Program-made: the position numbers and the translations under genes
Shown here: piece by piece, positions 243 through 4,254 of the stretch
Layout of the letters: every line of letters begins with the position of its first letter
How positions within the stretch are numbered: the first letter of the stretch is position 1
Notes under the pieces: model-generated
The model's input: the letters and a program-made list of their open reading frames with translations, nothing else
What the model was told of the DNA's origin: nothing
Databases searched by the model: none
From: a virus
Taxonomy: Duplodnaviria > Heunggongvirae > Uroviricota > Caudoviricetes
Direction: 5' to 3' (one strand)
Virus record (IMG/VR): IMGVR_UViG_3300014784_000061
Coordinates: 1 to 4,411 of that record
Length of the DNA: 4,411 bases

Positions 243-543
243 TGGCTGCCTCCTTTGCCGGGATTTCTAACTTTTGAGTGGTTGTATCAAATTCAAACAA
301 CTTAACCACGTCATCAAACAGGACATAATCACCATCAGGATCTTCAGTCATATCTGCGCCACAATCCTGACCGCACGAGTCGCAACCATCCATATCAAGC
401 TCGTATCGCTTCAGGTTTGCGATATTTGATAAATTCAGCGCCAGTACAGCCAGGTCATAAACCTCTTCGGCAGTGACATCGCTGTTCAGTCCCATTTCAT
501 GGCGATATATGATTTTTTCTACTCGTTGTTTTGTGATCGTCAT
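229..543 (-). CDS. Hypothetical acidic protein with Cys cluster, 104 aa
   Basis: Track ORF begins with TTG at 567. ATG at 543..541 lies downstream of GGAG (minus strand CGGAGTGAAGAGAAAA-ATG). Protein MTITKQRVEKIIYRHEMGLN...DMDGCDSCGQDCGADMTEDPDGDYVLFDDVVKLFEFD... is highly acidic in its second half and has a C-x2-C-x3-C cluster. Stop TGA at 231..229. Confidence 0.5.
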   Translation of the reverse strand: MTITKQRVEKIIYRHEMGLNSDVTAEEVYDLAVLALNLSNIANLKRYELDMDGCDSCGQDCGADMTEDPDGDYVLFDDVVKLFEFDTTTQKLEIPAKEAASEQD

Positions 544-573
544 TTTTCTCTTCACTCCGATATACAAGGATTA

Positions 574-813
574 CTACACCCCCTCTGCTGATTGCGCGAG
601 CTGGATCCCCTGGTTCCATGCCGTCAATTCCGAAGGCTTCGAAAATGCATCCATTGCCTTCTGGCGTTGCTCCTGCTTACGGCGTTTATTCCATTTTTTC
701 ATGAACAACAGTGACAGCCATCGTCCGCTGCAGAACATGATGTAGAAATAACCAAGAAGTGCCAGGCCGGTGTTCAGGGCCATATCAATCGTTATCGCCG
801 GGTCAATATTCAC
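574..813 (-). CDS. Small membrane protein, 79 aa (one predicted TM helix plus basic segment)
   Basis: GTG start at 813..811 with AGGAGG 6 nt upstream (minus strand CAGGAGGTGGGCA-GTG), overlapping the DUF4406 stop by 11 nt; alternative ATG at 783. Hydrophobic stretch ALNTGLALLGYFYIMF followed by basic KKWNKRRKQEQRQK. Stop TAG at 576..574. Confidence 0.5.
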   Translation of the reverse strand: MNIDPAITIDMALNTGLALLGYFYIMFCSGRWLSLLFMKKWNKRRKQEQRQKAMDAFSKPSELTAWNQGIQLAQSAEGV

Positions 814-1105
814 TGCCCACCTCCTGAAAAATCACCGCATGGCCCAGTTTCTCCGCCAGTGCCAGCTCAGCCCTTGCACCTGCCGACTGCTGCCAGCCTT
901 TCAGCATGTAAACCGCATCCACGCAACGGAGCATTGCCATGCAAATATCCATGTAGTGTGGTTGAGTCAGCCCGTCCGGAAGTACTGCCGGGTTTAAAAC
1001 GGTATGCCCTTCCCGTTTCAGTACCTCTTCCGCATTGTGAAACGCCTCACGGTTGAAATTTTTATACCCGGTCATTGGACCGGCGATATAGACTCTCACC
1101 CTCAC
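803..1105 (-). CDS. DUF4406 / nucleoside 2-deoxyribosyltransferase-like protein, 100 aa
   Basis: GTG start at 1105..1103 overlapping the upstream stop, preceded by AGGAGG about 7 nt upstream. N-terminus M/V-RVRVYIAGPMTG carries the YIAGPMTG glycine-rich signature that I associate with the nucleoside 2-deoxyribosyltransferase-like / DUF4406 family, whose members are small proteins of about 100 aa in phages and prophages. Confidence 0.65.
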   Translation of the reverse strand: MRVRVYIAGPMTGYKNFNREAFHNAEEVLKREGHTVLNPAVLPDGLTQPHYMDICMAMLRCVDAVYMLKGWQQSAGARAELALAEKLGHAVIFQEVGSEY

Positions 1106-1494
1106 TCCATCACCTCCTGAAAGTTTCCCCGATAGAACGCCAGCACACGCTGCATAACTTCGCTCCTCCTGCTCTCACGACAAATTATGTTCTGCCGTCT
1201 GTTGTAACGACGTATTTCTCCGTCAGGTAACTTTCGAATCAGTGTCGGGTCAGCAGCCTTCTCCGGTGTCTTACGCCATACGCGATACGCCTGCTCTGAT
1301 GGAAATACCCCGCAACCAGAGAGCCAGACATCACCACTGGCCGCAAGCGCACCAGATAAACGACGAATAGCGGTCTTACTGACACCCGTTTTATCTGCCA
1401 GTTGTCGAAAAGTTTCTCGTCCGCTCAGGCGCACGAATTCCACAATGCGCGCCTTCACTTCTTCCCGCTCTTCTGGTGTAAATACTTTTGCCAT
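1102..1494 (-). CDS. Hypothetical HTH / winged-helix protein, 130 aa
   Basis: Track ORF begins with TTG at 1509. ATG at 1494..1492 follows GGAGG with 5-nt spacing (minus strand CCGGAGGCGCTT-ATG). Stop TGA at 1104..1102 overlaps the next start (GTGA). HTH-like segment ETFRQLADKTGVSKTAIRRL resembles the wH segments of the upstream 241-aa protein. Confidence 0.55.
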   Translation of the reverse strand: MAKVFTPEEREEVKARIVEFVRLSGRETFRQLADKTGVSKTAIRRLSGALAASGDVWLSGCGVFPSEQAYRVWRKTPEKAADPTLIRKLPDGEIRRYNRRQNIICRESRRSEVMQRVLAFYRGNFQEVME

Positions 1495-1509
1495 AAGCGC
1501 CTCCGGCAA

Positions 1510-2235
1510 TCACTTTTCCGATACAACACGGCGGGAAGAATCAGTAATCTGTCGAACAATATCCCGGTGCTTGTTCAGCTCCCGCAGCGCGGCGCAGACT
1601 CGCTCCCACTTCTGAACCTGACCTTTTGCCCGGCGCAGCTCGCGGTTAGCCACATGCAGCGATGGTAAAATCAGACCATCCGGATGTTTTCTGGTGAACG
1701 ACGGCTGTGACTGCACTGTGACCGCCACACTTTCCGTTTTTATTTCTTCCTGTGTTTCTGCTTCCCGGACAGGTAACGCAACACCTGCTGGCTGAGGAAA
1801 GGCCTTACCATCATTTTCCGTTACCGGCACGGCTTTCGGCTCTGCTGGTAAATTATCGCCCGGCATGCAGTAACGAAATTTACCGCCCTGATTCACGCGA
1901 ATCAGACGCCCTTTGCTGATTGCCATTGCCAGCGATGAATTCGCACGGCGGGAGGTAATTCCGAACATCAATGCCAGCTCATCCGCCGTTTGTGGGCCAT
2001 GTTGTTCAATCGCCTCTGTCAGCATTTGCGCCGTCACTTTTGGTGGTTGTATCACAGATTCACTTTCCCCAGCCTGAGTCAGCCACCACATCGCCCCCCT
2101 GTTATCCGCTTCACCACGGCGTTTCAGTTTCCACAGTTCGTTGACAGCCTCTTCACGACTGATTCCAAGGCGCGCAGCCACCACATGTGAAGAGGCTTTT
2201 TTCAGTGCTTTCAGTGCGTCAGATACGGTTTCCAT
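1510..2235 (-). CDS. Hypothetical prophage protein, 241 aa, two tandem winged-helix-like segments plus a C-terminal predicted coiled coil
   Basis: Track ORF 1510..2253 begins with TTG. ATG at 2235..2233 has an excellent SD (minus strand TCGGAGGAAATTTTA-ATG), giving [13 protein letters not shown].... Two similar HTH/wH-like segments: [26 protein letters not shown] and [32 protein letters not shown]-terminal part [35 protein letters not shown] looks coiled-coil. Reminiscent of uncharacterised prophage DUF families; I cannot assign one without a search. Confidence 0.6.
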
Positions 2236-2268: not shown

Positions 2269-2931
2269 TCAAATAAAACCAGCTGCCTTCCGGCGTTCGT
2301 ATTCCTGTTTCAGCCGTTCAATTGGCGTTGGCCCTTGCGGGTGTTTCGCCCCTTCCAGTTGTCGTCGCACTGGCGGAACACTCATCCCGTTACCAACATG
2401 CTTTGCCCATTTCGTCAGTTGCCGTTCCGCAAGTCGTTTTAACTCACCCTGCGTCATCTGGCGCTCAATCCCTCTGGTACGCATTTCGAGGCAGATGTGG
2501 TACAGCACAGGCTGTGGCCACGGGTATTTATCACTCCCGTCGTATCGCCAGGATTCATTGCGCCAGCGCCGGTACTCTTCCATCACGGCATCCACCGTAA
2601 GACCAAATGGATTTGCCCCACTCTCCGAAATCAGCGCAACAAACTCAGCCAGGTCCGGGGGCCACGTTTCACCCGCCCGGCAGCGGTCCATGCACTGACG
2701 GCAGACCAGCCGGATTTGCTGTTCAGTCATCGTGCCAATCTGGGCAATCCAGAGCTTCGAAGGTGCGGCCCCGTTCTTCTGTGTCCAGCGGTTCGAATAC
2801 ACCTCCCCCATAAGCTCCCACAGCTTCCAGGCCATTTCCGTTGCTGATAAATCCGTTGTCTCGTTCCCACTGTTCGCGTGCTGCCCGGATTTCCTGAACT
2901 GCCCGTGATGCCGTGCCACCTGATGCTGCAT
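2269..2931 (-). CDS. Lambda P-like replication protein (DnaB helicase loader), up to 220 aa; start uncertain
   Basis: ATG at 2931..2929 has a strong SD (minus strand AAGGGGGTAAGCC-ATG); stop TGA at 2271..2269. Internal in-frame alternatives are ATG 2835, 2811 and 2730. From about residue 58 the protein (SKLWIAQIGTMTEQQIRLV...DLAEFVALISE...YPWPQPVLYHI...) resembles lambda P as I recall it (...IRRQWVLAFRENGITTMEQV...PSPGQFVAWCREE...YPWKSNAHYWLV...). No Walker A motif, so it is not DnaC-like. Confidence 0.65.
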   Translation of the reverse strand: MQHQVARHHGQFRKSGQHANSGNETTDLSATEMAWKLWELMGEVYSNRWTQKNGAAPSKLWIAQIGTMTEQQIRLVCRQCMDRCRAGETWPPDLAEFVALISESGANPFGLTVDAVMEEYRRWRNESWRYDGSDKYPWPQPVLYHICLEMRTRGIERQMTQGELKRLAERQLTKWAKHVGNGMSVPPVRRQLEGAKHPQGPTPIERLKQEYERRKAAGFI

Positions 2932-3760
2932 GGCTTACCCCCTTGCTGACTGGTTTTACCTGTGCCCTGACGTGCTGCACGTGGCGGGCAAATTTCTGCT
3001 CCCACTGAACCTGTGTGAAAACCTTCCCCTCCGCCATCCAGTAATCCCGGAATGCGGCAAGCTCTGCAGGTGTAAATTCCGGCTCAGGCAGAGCCATACC
3101 CCACACTGCTGCCCGTTGTCGAAAATCCGGCGACGGCTGCCAGACAGTGGTCATCGAAAATTTCCCGATCGGTTCGCTCAGGCCGTCCAGGTATTCAGGT
3201 TCGGCTGTCTGCAACGGCGCACCATGCGACTCACCGGTTGGAGCACTCTCGCGCATGCGCGCGTTATGTGTGGGGTTTAATTCTGTATCTGTATCTTTAT
3301 CTGTCGTGACTTGTCGTGACAGATGCGTGACACGTCGTGACTCATCGTGACAATCAGCATCATATTTCCGCAGCTTTTCGCGCTCCCGCTGCGCTCTCTT
3401 GCGCTCTGCCGGGGATTTTGCCGTTTGCGAAACGTTACCATTGTCCTCTTTCAGCACCTGACGTTTTTCCCATCCGGAAATAAGGTCACCATCCAGAACC
3501 CGCCCCTGCATTGCATGCAAAATTGAATCAATTACGTCTTCCGTCACATCAAGCGCACTTGCTAAATCTTCCGTCGTGACATCAATGTGACCACGTAGTG
3601 ACACGCCGTGACATGTCGTGACATTTCGTGACGCGCTCACCAGAAGGTGGATATACACTGCCATCACTGTTGCGATTGGCTGTCCTGATACCCTGGCAAT
3701 CGTTCGCCACTTGGGGTCATTTGGCATGTCATGCCACAATCTGAGCCAGGCATTAGCCAT
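2723..3760 (-). CDS. Phage replication initiator (lambda O position), 345 aa, with C-terminal DnaT-like domain; contains the putative ori iterons
   Basis: ORF 2723..3766 in the track begins with GTG; ATG at 3760..3758 is preceded by GAGG (minus strand AGAAGAGGTGAGT-ATG), so I place the start at 3760, with 3766 as an alternative. C-terminal region IGKFSMTTVWQPSPDFRQRAAVWGMALPEPEFTPAELAAFRDYWMAEGKVFTQVQWEQKFARHVQHVRAQ aligns by eye with the C-terminal domain of E. coli DnaT (recalled as ...[68 protein letters not shown]). Two iteron clusters lie inside the coding sequence, as in lambdoid O genes. Confidence 0.75.
   Translation of the reverse strand: MANAWLRLWHDMPNDPKWRTIARVSGQPIATVMAVYIHLLVSASRNVTTCHGVSLRGHIDVTTEDLASALDVTEDVIDSILHAMQGRVLDGDLISGWEKRQVLKEDNGNVSQTAKSPAERKRAQREREKLRKYDADCHDESRRVTHLSRQVTTDKDTDTELNPTHNARMRESAPTGESHGAPLQTAEPEYLDGLSEPIGKFSMTTVWQPSPDFRQRAAVWGMALPEPEFTPAELAAFRDYWMAEGKVFTQVQWEQKFARHVQHVRAQVKPVSKGVSHAASGGTASRAVQEIRAAREQWERDNGFISNGNGLEAVGAYGGGVFEPLDTEERGRTFEALDCPDWHDD
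3281..3300. repeat. AT-rich short tandem tract (tctgta/tctgta/tcttta, continuing into tctgtc) flanking iteron cluster A; candidate DNA-unwinding element
   Basis: Sequence ttctgtatctgtatctttat directly abuts the first iteron. It is locally AT-rich relative to the surrounding GC-rich coding DNA. Iteron arrays next to an AT-rich tract are typical of lambdoid origins. Confidence 0.4.
3301..3351. repeat. Iteron cluster A: 5 direct repeats with 10-11 bp period, core (T)CGTGAC
   Basis: Plus strand: ctgtcgtgac (3301-3310), ttgtcgtgac (3311-3320), agatgcgtgac (3321-3331), acgtcgtgac (3332-3341), tcatcgtgac (3342-3351). Immediately adjacent to an AT-richer 6-bp periodic tract at 3281-3300. Confidence 0.8.
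3571..3632. repeat. Iteron cluster B: 6 direct repeats with 10-11 bp period, core (C)GTGAC
   Basis: Plus strand: ccgtcgtgac (3571-3580), atcaatgtgac (3581-3591), cacgtagtgac (3592-3602), acgccgtgac (3603-3612), atgtcgtgac (3613-3622), atttcgtgac (3623-3632). One-helical-turn phasing. Lies in the N-terminal coding part of the initiator gene (encodes ...RNVTTCHGVSLRGHIDVTTEDL...). Confidence 0.8.
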
Positions 3761-3828
3761 ACTCACCTCTTCTGATACCGAACTTTACCCACGAACTTCC
3801 GGAAGAAATCCGGTATAAATATTGTTGG

Positions 3829-4254
3829 TCAATGCACAACAACAGCATTACCAGGCTGACCACCACTGTTAGTCAGGGTGCCCCAGGCGATCGCCGCTGC
3901 GACAAAATCATCCACATCTTTCACCAGCCGATCCCTCCGTTCGACGATCTCACGGTAATATTCAGAACTGTGGCTGCGCATACGGGCCACCAGCAAAGGC
4001 GGCATCGCCTTTTCGATCGCCGGTAACAGAGCCTGCATTTTTTCAACAGCATCAGGGGTGTCTTTATCCAGCCAACGGAAAATTTTCTGTGTATTACGGG
4101 CCAGGGCTTCCGGATGGCTGTCGTCGTACAGTTCAGGGAACGTCATCCCCAGTTCGAAATAAGTCCGGGCTATTTCAGCTGCAGGAACTTTCTCACCGTC
4201 CGGATAGGCCCAGGCATTGATCGCCATGCGGATGTGCTCATGCTTGATTTTCAT
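3829..4254 (-). CDS. ydaT: YdaT-family protein (141 aa) at the lambda cII position
   Basis: ATG at 4254..4252 preceded by AGGAG with 8-nt spacing (minus strand CTAGGAGCTTGATTC-ATG); stop at 3831..3829. Protein MKIKHEHIRMAINAWAYPDG... matches what I recall of E. coli Rac-prophage YdaT (about 140 aa, same N-terminus). It sits between the Cro-like gene and the replication initiator. Confidence 0.6.
   Translation of the reverse strand: MKIKHEHIRMAINAWAYPDGEKVPAAEIARTYFELGMTFPELYDDSHPEALARNTQKIFRWLDKDTPDAVEKMQALLPAIEKAMPPLLVARMRSHSSEYYREIVERRDRLVKDVDDFVAAAIAWGTLTNSGGQPGNAVVVH

What the first reader, a model, noticed from the sequence alone, without database searches (positions are those of the whole stretch)
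803..1105. DUF4406 / nucleoside 2-deoxyribosyltransferase-like small enzyme in the early operon: candidate nucleotide-targeting anti-defence or metabolic hijack gene
The YIAGPMTG signature places this 100-aa protein in the Rossmann-like N-glycosidase superfamily (nucleoside 2-deoxyribosyltransferase and related N-hydrolases), a superfamily whose enzymes cleave or exchange N-glycosidic bonds of nucleosides or nucleotides. It is expressed with the replication genes and translationally coupled to its neighbours. It could remodel the dNMP pool (for example, removing modified or unwanted bases) or degrade a nucleotide-based signalling molecule made by a host defence system. This family has, to my knowledge, no established function in phages.
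Basis: partly seen in the sequence, partly recalled or inferred. Interest (0 to 1): 0.55.

Follow-up and report, generated by a model that had tools for sequence, protein, structure and literature searches.

The report
Small phage nucleotide-cleaving enzyme, function untested
This is a real, well-conserved 100-residue prophage gene of the catalogued but uncharacterised DUF4406 family; it most likely cuts the base off DNA building blocks (dNMPs), it is common and ordinary in E. coli prophages, and nothing found here links it to anti-defence.

Summary
Window 803-1105 (minus strand) encodes a 100-aa protein with YIAGPMTG at residues 6-13. It matches Pfam DUF4406 at E=7e-37 over the whole profile. 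It is 100% identical to a RefSeq "DUF4406 domain-containing protein" of E. coli NCTC9112. About 22% of complete E. coli genomes carry it, under strong purifying selection (median dN/dS 0.08).

The predicted fold (pLDDT 90) and a broad family profile place it in the nucleoside 2-deoxyribosyltransferase/DNPH1 superfamily.

Residue mapping onto solved enzymes:
- Tyr6 and the nucleophile Glu80 are present.
- Ser74 occupies the position that is Ser in nucleotide-monophosphate N-glycosidases (DNPH1, BcmB) and Asp in nucleoside transferases.
- The canonical general-acid Asp is replaced by Cys55.

In other phages the domain is fused to, or sits directly next to, (d)NTP pyrophosphatases (MazG-like, PF18909, dUTPase). 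This mirrors the characterised phage pair DutZ-DmtZ (dATP to dAMP to adenine).

Best reading: a minimal dNMP N-glycosidase, possibly also a base-exchanger, made from the early operon. Its base specificity and physiological role are unknown. The anti-defence idea has no support here. The finding is an ordinary member of a known but uncharacterised family, of moderate to low interest.

The parts
803..1105 (-). DUF4406 coding sequence (100 aa, stop included). It is a minimal member of the NDT/DNPH1 superfamily with four beta strands.
   Evidence: Pfam PF14359 E=7e-37. AF2 model pLDDT 90 with order b1-a1-b2-a2-b3-a3-b4. RefSeq annotates the same coordinates. dN/dS 0.077.
1113..1118 (-). Shine-Dalgarno AGGAGG, 7 nt before the GTG start. 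It lies inside the last codons of the upstream DUF977 gene.
   Evidence: Sequence read directly.
1102..1105 (-). GTGA overlap of start and stop, joining the DUF977 stop to the DUF4406 start (translational coupling).
1088..1090 (-). Codon for Tyr6, the Tyr of the NDT catalytic triad. It aligns with CtNDT Y7, DNPH1 Y24 and DmtZ Y6; the CMP-specific BcmB has Phe here.
   Evidence: 84% Tyr and 10% Phe in the family.
1067..1081 (-). Codons for Gly9-Pro10-Met11-Thr12-Gly13, the loop after strand 1. It aligns with the DNPH1 loop G27-S-I-R-G31, whose backbone amides bind the 5'-phosphate.
   Evidence: hhalign to DNPH1 (weak, E=0.07). Phosphate contacts of rat DNPH1 from PMC3834327.
989..991 (-). Codon for Pro39, invariant in the family. 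It aligns with the Pro conserved in the deoxyribosyltransferases and with DmtZ P57; DNPH1 and BcmB lack it.
   Evidence: Role of this Pro as described in PMC12884076.
941..943 (-). Codon for Cys55, which occupies the column of the canonical general-acid Asp/Asn (CtNDT D62, the Asp of BcmB and of the 6EVS NDT, the Asn of the T. brucei enzyme).
   Evidence: Profile-to-PDB alignments. Actinophage DUF4406 members keep Asp in this column, as in 'RADIK'.
947..949 (-). Codon for Asp53. It is invariant in enterobacterial homologues but only 45% conserved family-wide. It is not at the canonical acid column and its role is unknown.
866..886 (-). Codons for the S74-A-G76-A-R-A-E80 motif, which holds the phosphate-type Ser, the ribose/phosphate Gly and the Glu nucleophile. 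Ser, Gly and Glu are invariant in the broad family alignment.
   Evidence: DNPH1 has S98-L-G100-V-G-Y-E104, and the PDB holds an E104Q variant of human DNPH1. Transferases have Asp at the Ser position.
1102..1494 (-). Upstream gene: DUF977 / Ren-like / 'LygF' HTH protein. The probable ATG start is at 1494; the mechanical ORF starts at 1509.
1510..2235 (-). DUF1627 (ydaW-like) gene.
2269..2730 (-). Lambda-P-like helicase loader. The probable start is ATG 2730, overlapping the stop of the O-like gene.
2723..3766 (-). O-like replication initiator with a DnaT domain. It contains the TCGTGAC iterons.
3829..4254 (-). cII-like / YdaT-family gene.
574..813 (-). Downstream DUF4752 gene, frameshifted in this window.
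   Evidence: RefSeq marks it 'frameshifted'.

Best explanation
The gene encodes a minimal enzyme of the nucleoside 2-deoxyribosyltransferase/DNPH1 (DrHyd) superfamily. It most likely acts on 2'-deoxynucleoside 5'-monophosphates.

Proposed mechanism (inferred): Glu80 attacks C1' and Tyr6 positions Glu80. Ser74, Gly76 and the Gly9-Gly13 loop hold the 5'-phosphate and the sugar. The base is released, leaving a deoxyribosyl-5-phosphate-enzyme intermediate. Water resolves this intermediate (N-glycosidase, as in DNPH1), or possibly another base does (phosphodeoxyribosyl transfer, as in DmtZ; suggested by the invariant Pro39).

The protein is made from the early rightward operon together with the O/P replication genes. 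It would therefore reshape or clean the dNMP pool while phage DNA is being replicated.

Shown: the gene is real and under constraint; it belongs to the family and the superfamily; the residue mapping holds; the domain is linked to dNTP pyrophosphatases in other phages.

Inferred: the substrate class. The base specificity, the oligomeric state and the benefit to the phage remain unknown. Cys55 at the general-acid column means the chemistry may differ from the textbook triad.

For: 2. Residue mapping. Y6 aligns with CtNDT Y7. E80 aligns with CtNDT E88 and DNPH1 E104. These are the residues mutated in PDB entries 9EMW (Y7F), 8PQQ/8PQS (E88Q/A) and 8QHQ (E104Q). S74 aligns with the Ser of DNPH1 (S98), BcmB and 1T1J, whereas the nucleoside transferases have Asp there (CtNDT D82, the T. 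brucei 'EPDCGTAFE', the 6EVS 'YDDTGTAWE'). In rat DNPH1 the equivalent Ser87 side chain, the Gly89 amide and the loop amides bind the phosphate (PMC3834327).

3. Conservation. P39, S74, G76 and E80 are invariant in the broad alignment. Y6 is 84% Tyr. dN/dS is 0.077.

4. Context elsewhere.
- Mycobacterium phage Redno2 gp158 is a DUF4406 + PRA-PH/MazG-like fusion, found full-length in 50 phage records.
- PF18909 dATP/dGTP diphosphohydrolase is the most frequent neighbour family. It is the immediately downstream gene in L104, L105 and L109.
- BFVD holds proteins named for the PF18909 domain that contain this fold at 32-40% identity.
- A dUTPase gene follows with a 4-nt overlap in Vibrio phage 1.093.O.
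- DUF550 sits next to it in phage DrDrey.

5. Precedent. The phage pair DutZ + DmtZ (fused in phage Wayne) converts dATP to dAMP to adenine. DmtZ is dNMP-specific, and its Y6A and E103A mutants are dead (PMC12884076).
Against: - No biochemical data exist for any DUF4406 protein.
- The canonical general-acid Asp/Asn column holds Cys55. Asp53 is not conserved family-wide. In DmtZ even an Asn-to-Asp change at that column lowered kcat/Km about 100-fold, so the catalytic rate or the substrate of this clade may differ.
- The protein lacks the C-terminal segment that supplies second-subunit phosphate and ribose contacts in DNPH1 (Ser117'/Met119' in rat). The model ends after strand 4.
- The alignments to DNPH1 and DmtZ alone are statistically weak (E=0.07 and 0.19).
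- No pyrophosphatase partner is present in this window or in the homologous prophages inspected.
- In 80 E. coli viral contigs the neighbours are replication genes upstream and 13 unrelated gene clusters downstream. The local context therefore says nothing about substrate.
- The enrichment of neighbours was not tested against a background rate.
Confidence: 0.5

Rival explanations
1. It is a classical nucleoside 2-deoxyribosyltransferase, as PHROG 355 and many actinophage records label it. It would swap bases between free deoxynucleosides for salvage.
For: PHROG 355 carries this label, as do many GenBank phage records. The best single PDB match by profile and by Foldseek is an NDT. The invariant Pro39 aligns with the Pro of the transferases.
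Against: The Asp that sits six residues before the nucleophile in every aligned transferase is an invariant Ser here, as in DNPH1 and BcmB, which act on 5'-monophosphates. The general-acid Asp is missing. The partners in fusions and neighbourhoods make dNMPs, not nucleosides. The database labels are inconsistent: the same single-domain protein is also called 'dCMP deaminase', 'MazG-like' and 'hydrolase'. They are not evidence.
Confidence: 0.12
2. It is an anti-defence enzyme. It would cleave the N-glycosidic bond of a nucleotide immune signal or alarm molecule (cADPR isomers, other ADPR-derived signals, or a modified dNMP such as m6-dAMP), or it would otherwise act on NAD-related molecules.
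Against: There is no PADLOC hit and no literature link. Tyr6 is the residue said to exclude ribose substrates, which argues against cADPR, NAD and cyclic oligoribonucleotides. A published survey reported that viruses carry only ADP-ribosyl-cyclase-type DrHyd domains, and only rarely, so that survey did not count this family as NAD-directed. The recurrent partners are dNTP pyrophosphatases. The methylase association was not tested against the high base rate of methylases in phages.
Confidence: 0.1
3. It is a non-catalytic nucleotide-binding protein (a sensor, sponge or regulator) that kept the fold but lost turnover.
For: Cys replaces the general-acid residue. The domain is truncated to four strands and lacks the second-subunit contacts. 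Inactive, ligand-binding versions are known in the TIR/DrHyd/SLOG clade.
Against: Glu80, Ser74 and Gly76 are invariant and Tyr6 is nearly so, across a family with more than 12,000 representative clusters. This is what is expected for a working active site. The fusions to pyrophosphatases suggest consecutive catalytic steps.
Confidence: 0.1

Closest known systems
DNPH1 / Rcl (2'-deoxynucleoside 5'-phosphate N-hydrolase; PDB 4FYH, 4P5E, 8QHR)
   Same: Same fold. Tyr and the Glu nucleophile are in the same columns. The S-x-G-x-x-x-E motif has identical spacing (S98...E104 against S74...E80). The Gly-rich loop after strand 1 aligns with the DNPH1 phosphate loop.
   Different: This protein hits PF14359, not PF05014. 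It is 100 aa against a core of about 145 aa, and it lacks the C-terminal segment that gives Ser117'/Met119' from the second subunit. Cys55 replaces Asp80. Pro39 is present, whereas DNPH1 has no Pro there. The pairwise profile alignment is weak (E=0.07).
DmtZ of Gordonia phage Ghobes / Arthrobacter phage Wayne (dAMP N-hydrolase and deoxyribose-5-phosphate transferase; PMC12884076)
   Same: It is a phage-encoded NDT-superfamily enzyme. Tyr6, the Pro and the Glu align. It has an uncharged small residue at the position 6 residues before the Glu and is specific for dNMPs. It works with, or is fused to, a dNTP pyrophosphatase, just as DUF4406 domains are fused or adjacent to MazG-like, PF18909 and dUTPase genes.
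   Different: There is no significant sequence similarity (E=0.19). DmtZ is about 160 aa with five strands and gives only a weak PF05014 hit. It has Asn at the acid column, where this protein has Cys. It belongs to the PurZ0 2-aminoadenine pathway, which is absent from this E. coli prophage.
Nucleoside 2-deoxyribosyltransferases (T. brucei 2A0K, C. thermalis 8QC0, B. psychrosaccharolyticus 6EVS, L. leichmannii 1F8X)
   Same: These are the best sequence-profile and Foldseek matches. Tyr, Pro and Glu are conserved.
   Different: The transferases have Asp at the position 6 residues before the Glu (Ser74 here) and Asp/Asn at the general-acid column (Cys55 here). They are also longer, at 135-160 aa.
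BcmB / MilB / BlsM (CMP and hydroxymethyl-CMP N-glycosidases)
   Different: BcmB has Phe where this protein has Tyr6, in line with its ribo-specificity. It keeps Asp at the acid column. These enzymes belong to antibiotic biosynthesis clusters.
DUF1937 (PF09152; P. aeruginosa structural-genomics protein, PDB 1T1J)
   Different: It too is functionally uncharacterised. In the alignment it has 'FSQVS' where this family has 'LNPAE', so no Pro aligns with Pro39, and it has Phe at the Tyr column ('KIFLACP').
NDT-like effector of retron Ec86 (Eco1) and TIR/ThsB NADases
   Same: They belong to the same broad Rossmann-like clade.
   Different: Those are host defence effectors acting on NAD or adenine nucleotides within multi-component systems. 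This gene is a solitary phage early gene with no PADLOC match.

Membership tests
Pfam DUF4406 (PF14359) | Score above the curated gathering threshold across the whole profile | tested here: met
   126.1 bits against a cut-off of 22; profile positions 2-91 of 91.
Pfam DUF4406 (PF14359) | Family-invariant residues present (P39, S74, G76, E80; near-invariant G9, G13, F22) | tested here: met
   Alignments A1, A3 and the 86-sequence set.
NDT / DNPH1 (DrHyd) superfamily | Rossmann-like three-layer alpha/beta fold that matches solved members | tested here: met
NDT / DNPH1 (DrHyd) superfamily | Statistically significant sequence-profile relationship to solved members | tested here: met
   The A3 profile hits 2A0K at E=1.5e-6, 4JEN at 3e-5 and 6EVS at 1.4e-4. 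The single sequence and the narrow A1 profile did not reach significance.
NDT / DNPH1 (DrHyd) superfamily | Catalytic Glu nucleophile | tested here: met
   E80 aligns with CtNDT E88 and DNPH1 E104 and is invariant.
NDT / DNPH1 (DrHyd) superfamily | Tyr of the catalytic triad at the end of strand 1 | tested here: met
   Y6 aligns with CtNDT Y7, DNPH1 Y24 and DmtZ Y6.
NDT / DNPH1 (DrHyd) superfamily | Asp (or Asn) general acid of the triad | tested here: not met
   The column of CtNDT D62, the BcmB Asp and the T. brucei Asn holds Cys55. Asp53 lies two residues upstream and is only 45% conserved. More distant DUF4406 members do keep Asp in this column.
NDT / DNPH1 (DrHyd) superfamily | Dimeric assembly with a composite active site | not testable with these tools
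   Only monomer prediction is available, and no coordinates are returned.
Nucleoside 2-deoxyribosyltransferase sensu stricto (the PHROG 355 label) | Asp six residues before the Glu, as in every transferase aligned here | tested here: not met
   Ser74, invariant in the family.
Nucleoside 2-deoxyribosyltransferase sensu stricto (the PHROG 355 label) | Pro after strand 2 that shields the active site from water | tested here: met
   P39 aligns with the Pro of 2A0K, 8QC0, 6EVS and DmtZ P57.
Nucleoside 2-deoxyribosyltransferase sensu stricto (the PHROG 355 label) | Match to Pfam PF05014 (Nuc_deoxyrib_tr) | tested here: not met
   This protein has no PF05014 hit. Some actinophage DUF4406 proteins give sub-threshold hits.
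DNPH1-type (d)NMP N-hydrolase | Ser and Gly of the S-x-G-x-x-x-E motif, plus the strand-1 loop, that bind the 5'-phosphate | tested here: met
   S74, G76 and G9-G13 align with DNPH1 S98, G100 and G27-G31. The contacts are described in PMC3834327.
DNPH1-type (d)NMP N-hydrolase | Second-subunit Ser/Met contacts from the segment after strand 4 | tested here: not met
   The protein ends at residue 100, just after strand 4. The alignment to DNPH1 stops at its residue 116.
DNPH1-type (d)NMP N-hydrolase | Hydrolysis of dNMP to base plus deoxyribose 5-phosphate | not testable with these tools
   This needs an enzyme assay.
DmtZ (phage dAMP hydrolase/transferase) | Sequence relationship to Ghobes AOE44404.1 | tested here: not met
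   hhalign E=0.19. The two proteins hit different Pfam families.
DmtZ (phage dAMP hydrolase/transferase) | Genomic linkage to PurZ0/DutZ (the 2-aminoadenine pathway) | tested here: not met
   No such genes occur in the window or in the homologous prophage regions.
Known anti-phage defence or anti-defence protein families | Match to a curated model | tested here: not met
   No PADLOC family matches. No anti-defence library is available, so that part is untested.

The most novel reading that the evidence does not exclude
DUF4406 proteins may be natural phosphodeoxyribosyl-transferases/N-glycosidases in which a thiol (Cys55) replaces the usual acid. They would selectively destroy or re-base a particular non-canonical dNMP. 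One candidate is a methylated dNMP such as m6-dAMP, released from methylated DNA. Destroying it would both prevent re-incorporation and erase a nucleotide alarm that some defence systems sense. On this reading, a gene present in about a fifth of E. coli genomes and in hundreds of phages would be a widespread 'nucleotide alarm eraser'.
Probability: 0.08. Interest if true: 0.75.

Novelty: new member of a known kind. Interest (0 to 1): 0.33.

Why it matters
DUF4406 is one of the more common small accessory genes of temperate and lytic phages. It appears in 584 phage records, in more than 12,000 representative clusters at 50% identity, and in 1,210 of 5,426 complete E. coli genomes. No member has been assayed.

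The residue mapping and the pyrophosphatase fusions give a specific, cheap experiment: base release from dNMPs, wild type against E80Q, with and without acceptor bases.

If the prediction holds, many mislabelled phage genes ('nucleoside deoxyribosyltransferase', 'dCMP deaminase', 'MazG-like', 'hydrolase') could be re-annotated. The two-step route of dNTP to dNMP to base, recently shown for phages with 2-aminoadenine genomes, would then turn out to be a general phage strategy for editing nucleotide pools.

For this particular window the gene is an ordinary, already annotated member of the family.

Tried and rejected
- Asp53 as the catalytic acid. Rejected after broad alignment and profile-to-PDB mapping put the acid column at Cys55.
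- Sequence searches of the PDB with the single protein and with the enterobacterial profile. These gave nothing significant. Only the broad profile A3 worked.
- NCBIfam, PADLOC and Rfam. No hits for this gene or window.
- Long representative proteins (235-358 aa) carrying the domain. Their extra parts have no Pfam match, so they gave no functional clue and may be gene-calling artefacts.
- GenBank labels 'deoxycytidylate deaminase' and 'MazG-like pyrophosphatase' on ~122-aa actinophage proteins. These proved to be single-domain DUF4406 proteins, so the labels are mis-annotations. The true MazG-like fusion exists only in the ~248-aa proteins of Redno2-type phages.
- DmtZ membership. Rejected.
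- The NDT proposed for the 2-aminoadenine pathway in a 2025 preprint. That is PF05014, not this family.
- Local neighbourhood in 80 E. coli viral contigs. There is no constant partner beyond the replication module.
- Literature searches on DUF4406, PF14359, DrHyd, DNPH1 + bacteriophage, and deoxyribosyltransferase + phage/prophage/anti-defense. No functional study of this family was found.
- Two key enzymology papers (PMC3585086, PMC3750073). They are not held. The roles of the Asp/Ser switch and of Tyr/Phe therefore rest on the alignments made here and on statements in PMC12884076 and PMC3834327.
Full report
**What is in the window.**
All substantial genes lie on the minus strand and form the early rightward operon of a lambdoid (Rac/Stx-type) E. 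coli prophage:
- cII/YdaT-like, 3829-4254
- O-like initiator with a DnaT domain, 2723-3766
- lambda-P-like helicase loader, 2269-2730
- DUF1627, 1510-2235
- DUF977 (Ren-like, 'LygF'), 1102-1494
- the gene in question, 803-1105
- DUF4752, 574-813
- a PHROG-3126 protein, 229-543
- the start of an ead/Ea22-like gene, 1-242

The window is a mosaic. About 90% of it matches E. coli JE86-ST05 at 96% identity. The DUF977-DUF4406 segment is 100% identical to E. coli NCTC9112, where a different O gene precedes it.

**Check of the observation.**
The ORF at 803-1105 encodes 100 residues with YIAGPMTG at positions 6-13. It matches Pfam DUF4406 over the whole profile (126 bits, E=7e-37) and PHROG 355. RefSeq annotates the same coordinates as a 'DUF4406 domain-containing protein'.

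Its GTG start overlaps the upstream TGA (GTGA), with AGGAGG 7 nt upstream. Its 3' end overlaps the GTG of the next ORF by 11 nt. A second in-frame GTG two codons downstream would give the N-terminus most homologues have.

The gene occurs in 1,210 of 5,426 complete E. coli genomes, with up to four copies per genome. Forty-three distinct alleles give a median dN/dS of 0.077 with no disrupted copies. The gene is real, functional and common.

**Family and fold.**
An exhaustive HMMER scan found 12,180 representative clusters at E<=1e-3. tblastn found the domain in 584 phage records, mostly phages of Arthrobacter, Vibrio, Gordonia, Mycobacterium and Pseudomonas.

The single sequence and the enterobacterial profile do not reach significance against PDB sequences. 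A 43-sequence profile spanning proteobacterial and actinophage members does: T. brucei NDT 1.5e-6, 1T1J 1.1e-5, BcmB 3e-5, NDT 6EVS 1.4e-4.

**Active-site mapping.**
The alignments can be read against residues that depositors mutated in C. thermalis NDT (Y7F, D62N, E88Q/A; entry titles) and in human DNPH1 (E104Q).
- Window Tyr6 aligns with Y7.
- Glu80 aligns with E88 and E104.
- Ser74 falls in the column that is Asp in every aligned transferase (CtNDT D82, the T. brucei 'EPDCGTAFE', the 6EVS 'YDDTGTAWE'). That column is Ser in DNPH1 (S98), in the CMP N-glycosidase BcmB and in 1T1J.

In rat DNPH1 the corresponding Ser87 side chain, the Gly89 amide and the amides of the loop after strand 1 bind the 5'-phosphate, and the Glu binds the sugar hydroxyls (PMC3834327). 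The window protein has counterparts for all of these first-subunit contacts: S74, G76, G9-G13 and E80.

BcmB, which prefers the ribonucleotide CMP, has Phe at the Tyr6 column. The DmtZ paper describes the Tyr as the residue that excludes ribose substrates.

Pro39 is invariant in the family. It aligns with the Pro of the transferases and with DmtZ P57, which that paper describes as shielding the site from water.

One expected feature is missing. The general-acid column (CtNDT D62, the BcmB Asp, the T. brucei Asn) holds Cys55. Asp53 looked like the obvious candidate. It is two residues upstream, invariant only in enterobacterial homologues and 45% conserved in the wider family. More distant actinophage members keep Asp in the canonical column, as in 'RADIK'.

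The protein also lacks the C-terminal segment that supplies second-subunit contacts in DNPH1.

**Context.**
In 80 E. coli viral contigs the upstream neighbour is DUF1627 (47 cases) or DUF977 (30 cases). The downstream neighbour falls into 13 unrelated clusters. The gene is thus a free-standing cassette at the border between the replication module and the variable nin-like region, with no fixed local partner.

In other phages a pattern appears.
- Mycobacterium phage Redno2 gp158 is a DUF4406 + PRA-PH/MazG-like fusion, present full-length in 50 phage records.
- Among 123 dereplicated neighbour clusters from 96 diverse viral loci, the most frequent Pfam family is PF18909, the dATP/dGTP diphosphohydrolase N-terminal domain. 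It is the immediately downstream gene in L104, L105 and L109.
- BFVD contains proteins named for PF18909 that carry this fold at 32-40% identity.
- A dUTPase gene follows with a 4-nt overlap in Vibrio phage 1.093.O.
- A DUF550 gene is adjacent in phage DrDrey.

Enzymes of these classes convert (d)NTPs to (d)NMPs; this is family knowledge and was not assayed for these particular proteins. The same logic was shown experimentally for DutZ and DmtZ of phages Ghobes and Wayne: dATP to dAMP to adenine, with DmtZ strictly dNMP-specific and also able to transfer deoxyribose 5-phosphate to 2-aminoadenine (PMC12884076).

DmtZ itself is not a DUF4406 protein.

**Interpretation.**
The most economical reading is a minimal dNMP N-glycosidase, possibly with base-exchange activity, made early with the replication proteins. 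I put this at about 0.5. It rests on homology, residue mapping and guilt by association, with no assay of any family member. The Cys-for-Asp replacement and the truncated architecture leave room for different chemistry.

Three rivals remain:
- Classical nucleoside transferase (0.12). The invariant Ser74 argues against it.
- Anti-defence cleavage of a nucleotide signal (0.10). It has no positive evidence: there is no PADLOC hit, and Tyr6 argues against ribose-based signals. The only hints are a possible association with DNA methylase genes (not tested against background) and the recent report that m6-dAMP can trigger a defence system.
- Non-catalytic binder (0.10). The invariant Glu, Ser and Gly argue against it.

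**Comparison and novelty.**
The protein is a bona fide member of Pfam DUF4406 and of the NDT/DNPH1 superfamily. It should not be filed as a nucleoside 2-deoxyribosyltransferase, because the Asp six residues before the nucleophile that all aligned transferases carry is Ser here. It cannot be filed as a DNPH1 orthologue either: the Pfam family differs, the second-subunit contacts are missing and the acid residue is missing. It probably works like DNPH1 or DmtZ.

As a sequence and as a family it is already catalogued and very common. What is new here is the residue-level prediction of substrate class, the recognition that the catalytic Asp is replaced in this clade, and the link to pyrophosphatases through fusions and adjacency. 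Interest is moderate to low for this window. It is higher for the family as a whole, because the prediction is easy to test.

Noticed in passing
window 3295-3351 and 3587-3632 (inside the O-like gene 2723-3766, minus strand): There are two clusters of TCGTGAC repeats spaced about 10 nt apart, about 260 nt from each other. They look like origin iterons within the initiator gene, as in lambda ori.
   Followed up: partly
window 574-813 and 497-619 (minus strand); homopolymer at 642-645 (+): The DUF4752 gene is frameshifted. The window has a run of 4 A (+ strand) where intact alleles (L009, L018, L019) have 5. The displaced C-terminal part is readable in ORF 497-619. RefSeq marks the same gene 'frameshifted' in NCTC9112 and JE86-ST05, and several viral contigs share truncated forms.
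   Followed up: partly
window 1111-1122 and 818-829 (minus strand): The same 12-mer TTTCAGGAGGTG (encoding FQEV and containing the Shine-Dalgarno sequence for the next gene) ends both the DUF977 gene and the DUF4406 gene. It may be a short homology that lets cassettes be swapped. This fits the alternating upstream neighbours and the 13 different downstream neighbours seen in 80 related contigs.
   Followed up: no
window 2278-2294 (minus strand): A weak terminator-like hairpin followed by a T-rich run sits at the very end of the P-like gene, in a position comparable to lambda tR2. The match is weak and such sites are not more frequent than in shuffled sequence.
   Followed up: no
window 2269-2931, 1510-2253, 1102-1509 (minus strand): The mechanical ORF list over-extends three genes. 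The likely true starts are ATG 2730 for P (ATGA-type overlap with the O stop), ATG 2235 for DUF1627 and ATG 1494 for DUF977. These agree with the RefSeq gene lengths in homologous prophages.
   Followed up: partly
neighbours of DUF4406 genes in L089-L198, and in phages PY54, Lunar, Nadeem and RHph_Y52: DNA methyltransferases of five different Pfam families (D12, Dam, N6_N4, MT-A70, C5) appear among 123 dereplicated neighbour clusters, and within a few genes in several annotated phages. This was not tested against the high background frequency of methylases in phage early regions.
   Followed up: no
L007:2477-2842, L008:2504-2869, L201:3001-3384 (GenBank phage records): Single-domain DUF4406 proteins of actinophages are deposited under inconsistent names ('deoxycytidylate deaminase', 'MazG-like pyrophosphatase', 'hydrolase', 'nucleoside deoxyribosyltransferase'). 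Pfam finds only DUF4406, sometimes with a weak PF05014 hit.
   Followed up: yes
L202 (E. coli NCTC9112 prophage next to yccA): The prophage carrying the identical gene has the layout of an Stx-type lambdoid phage: a DNA methyltransferase, tRNA-Ile/Arg/Arg and a nanS-p-like SASA esterase downstream of the Q region. No stx genes are annotated in the stretch inspected. A RelE/RelB pair sits in the immunity region.
   Followed up: no
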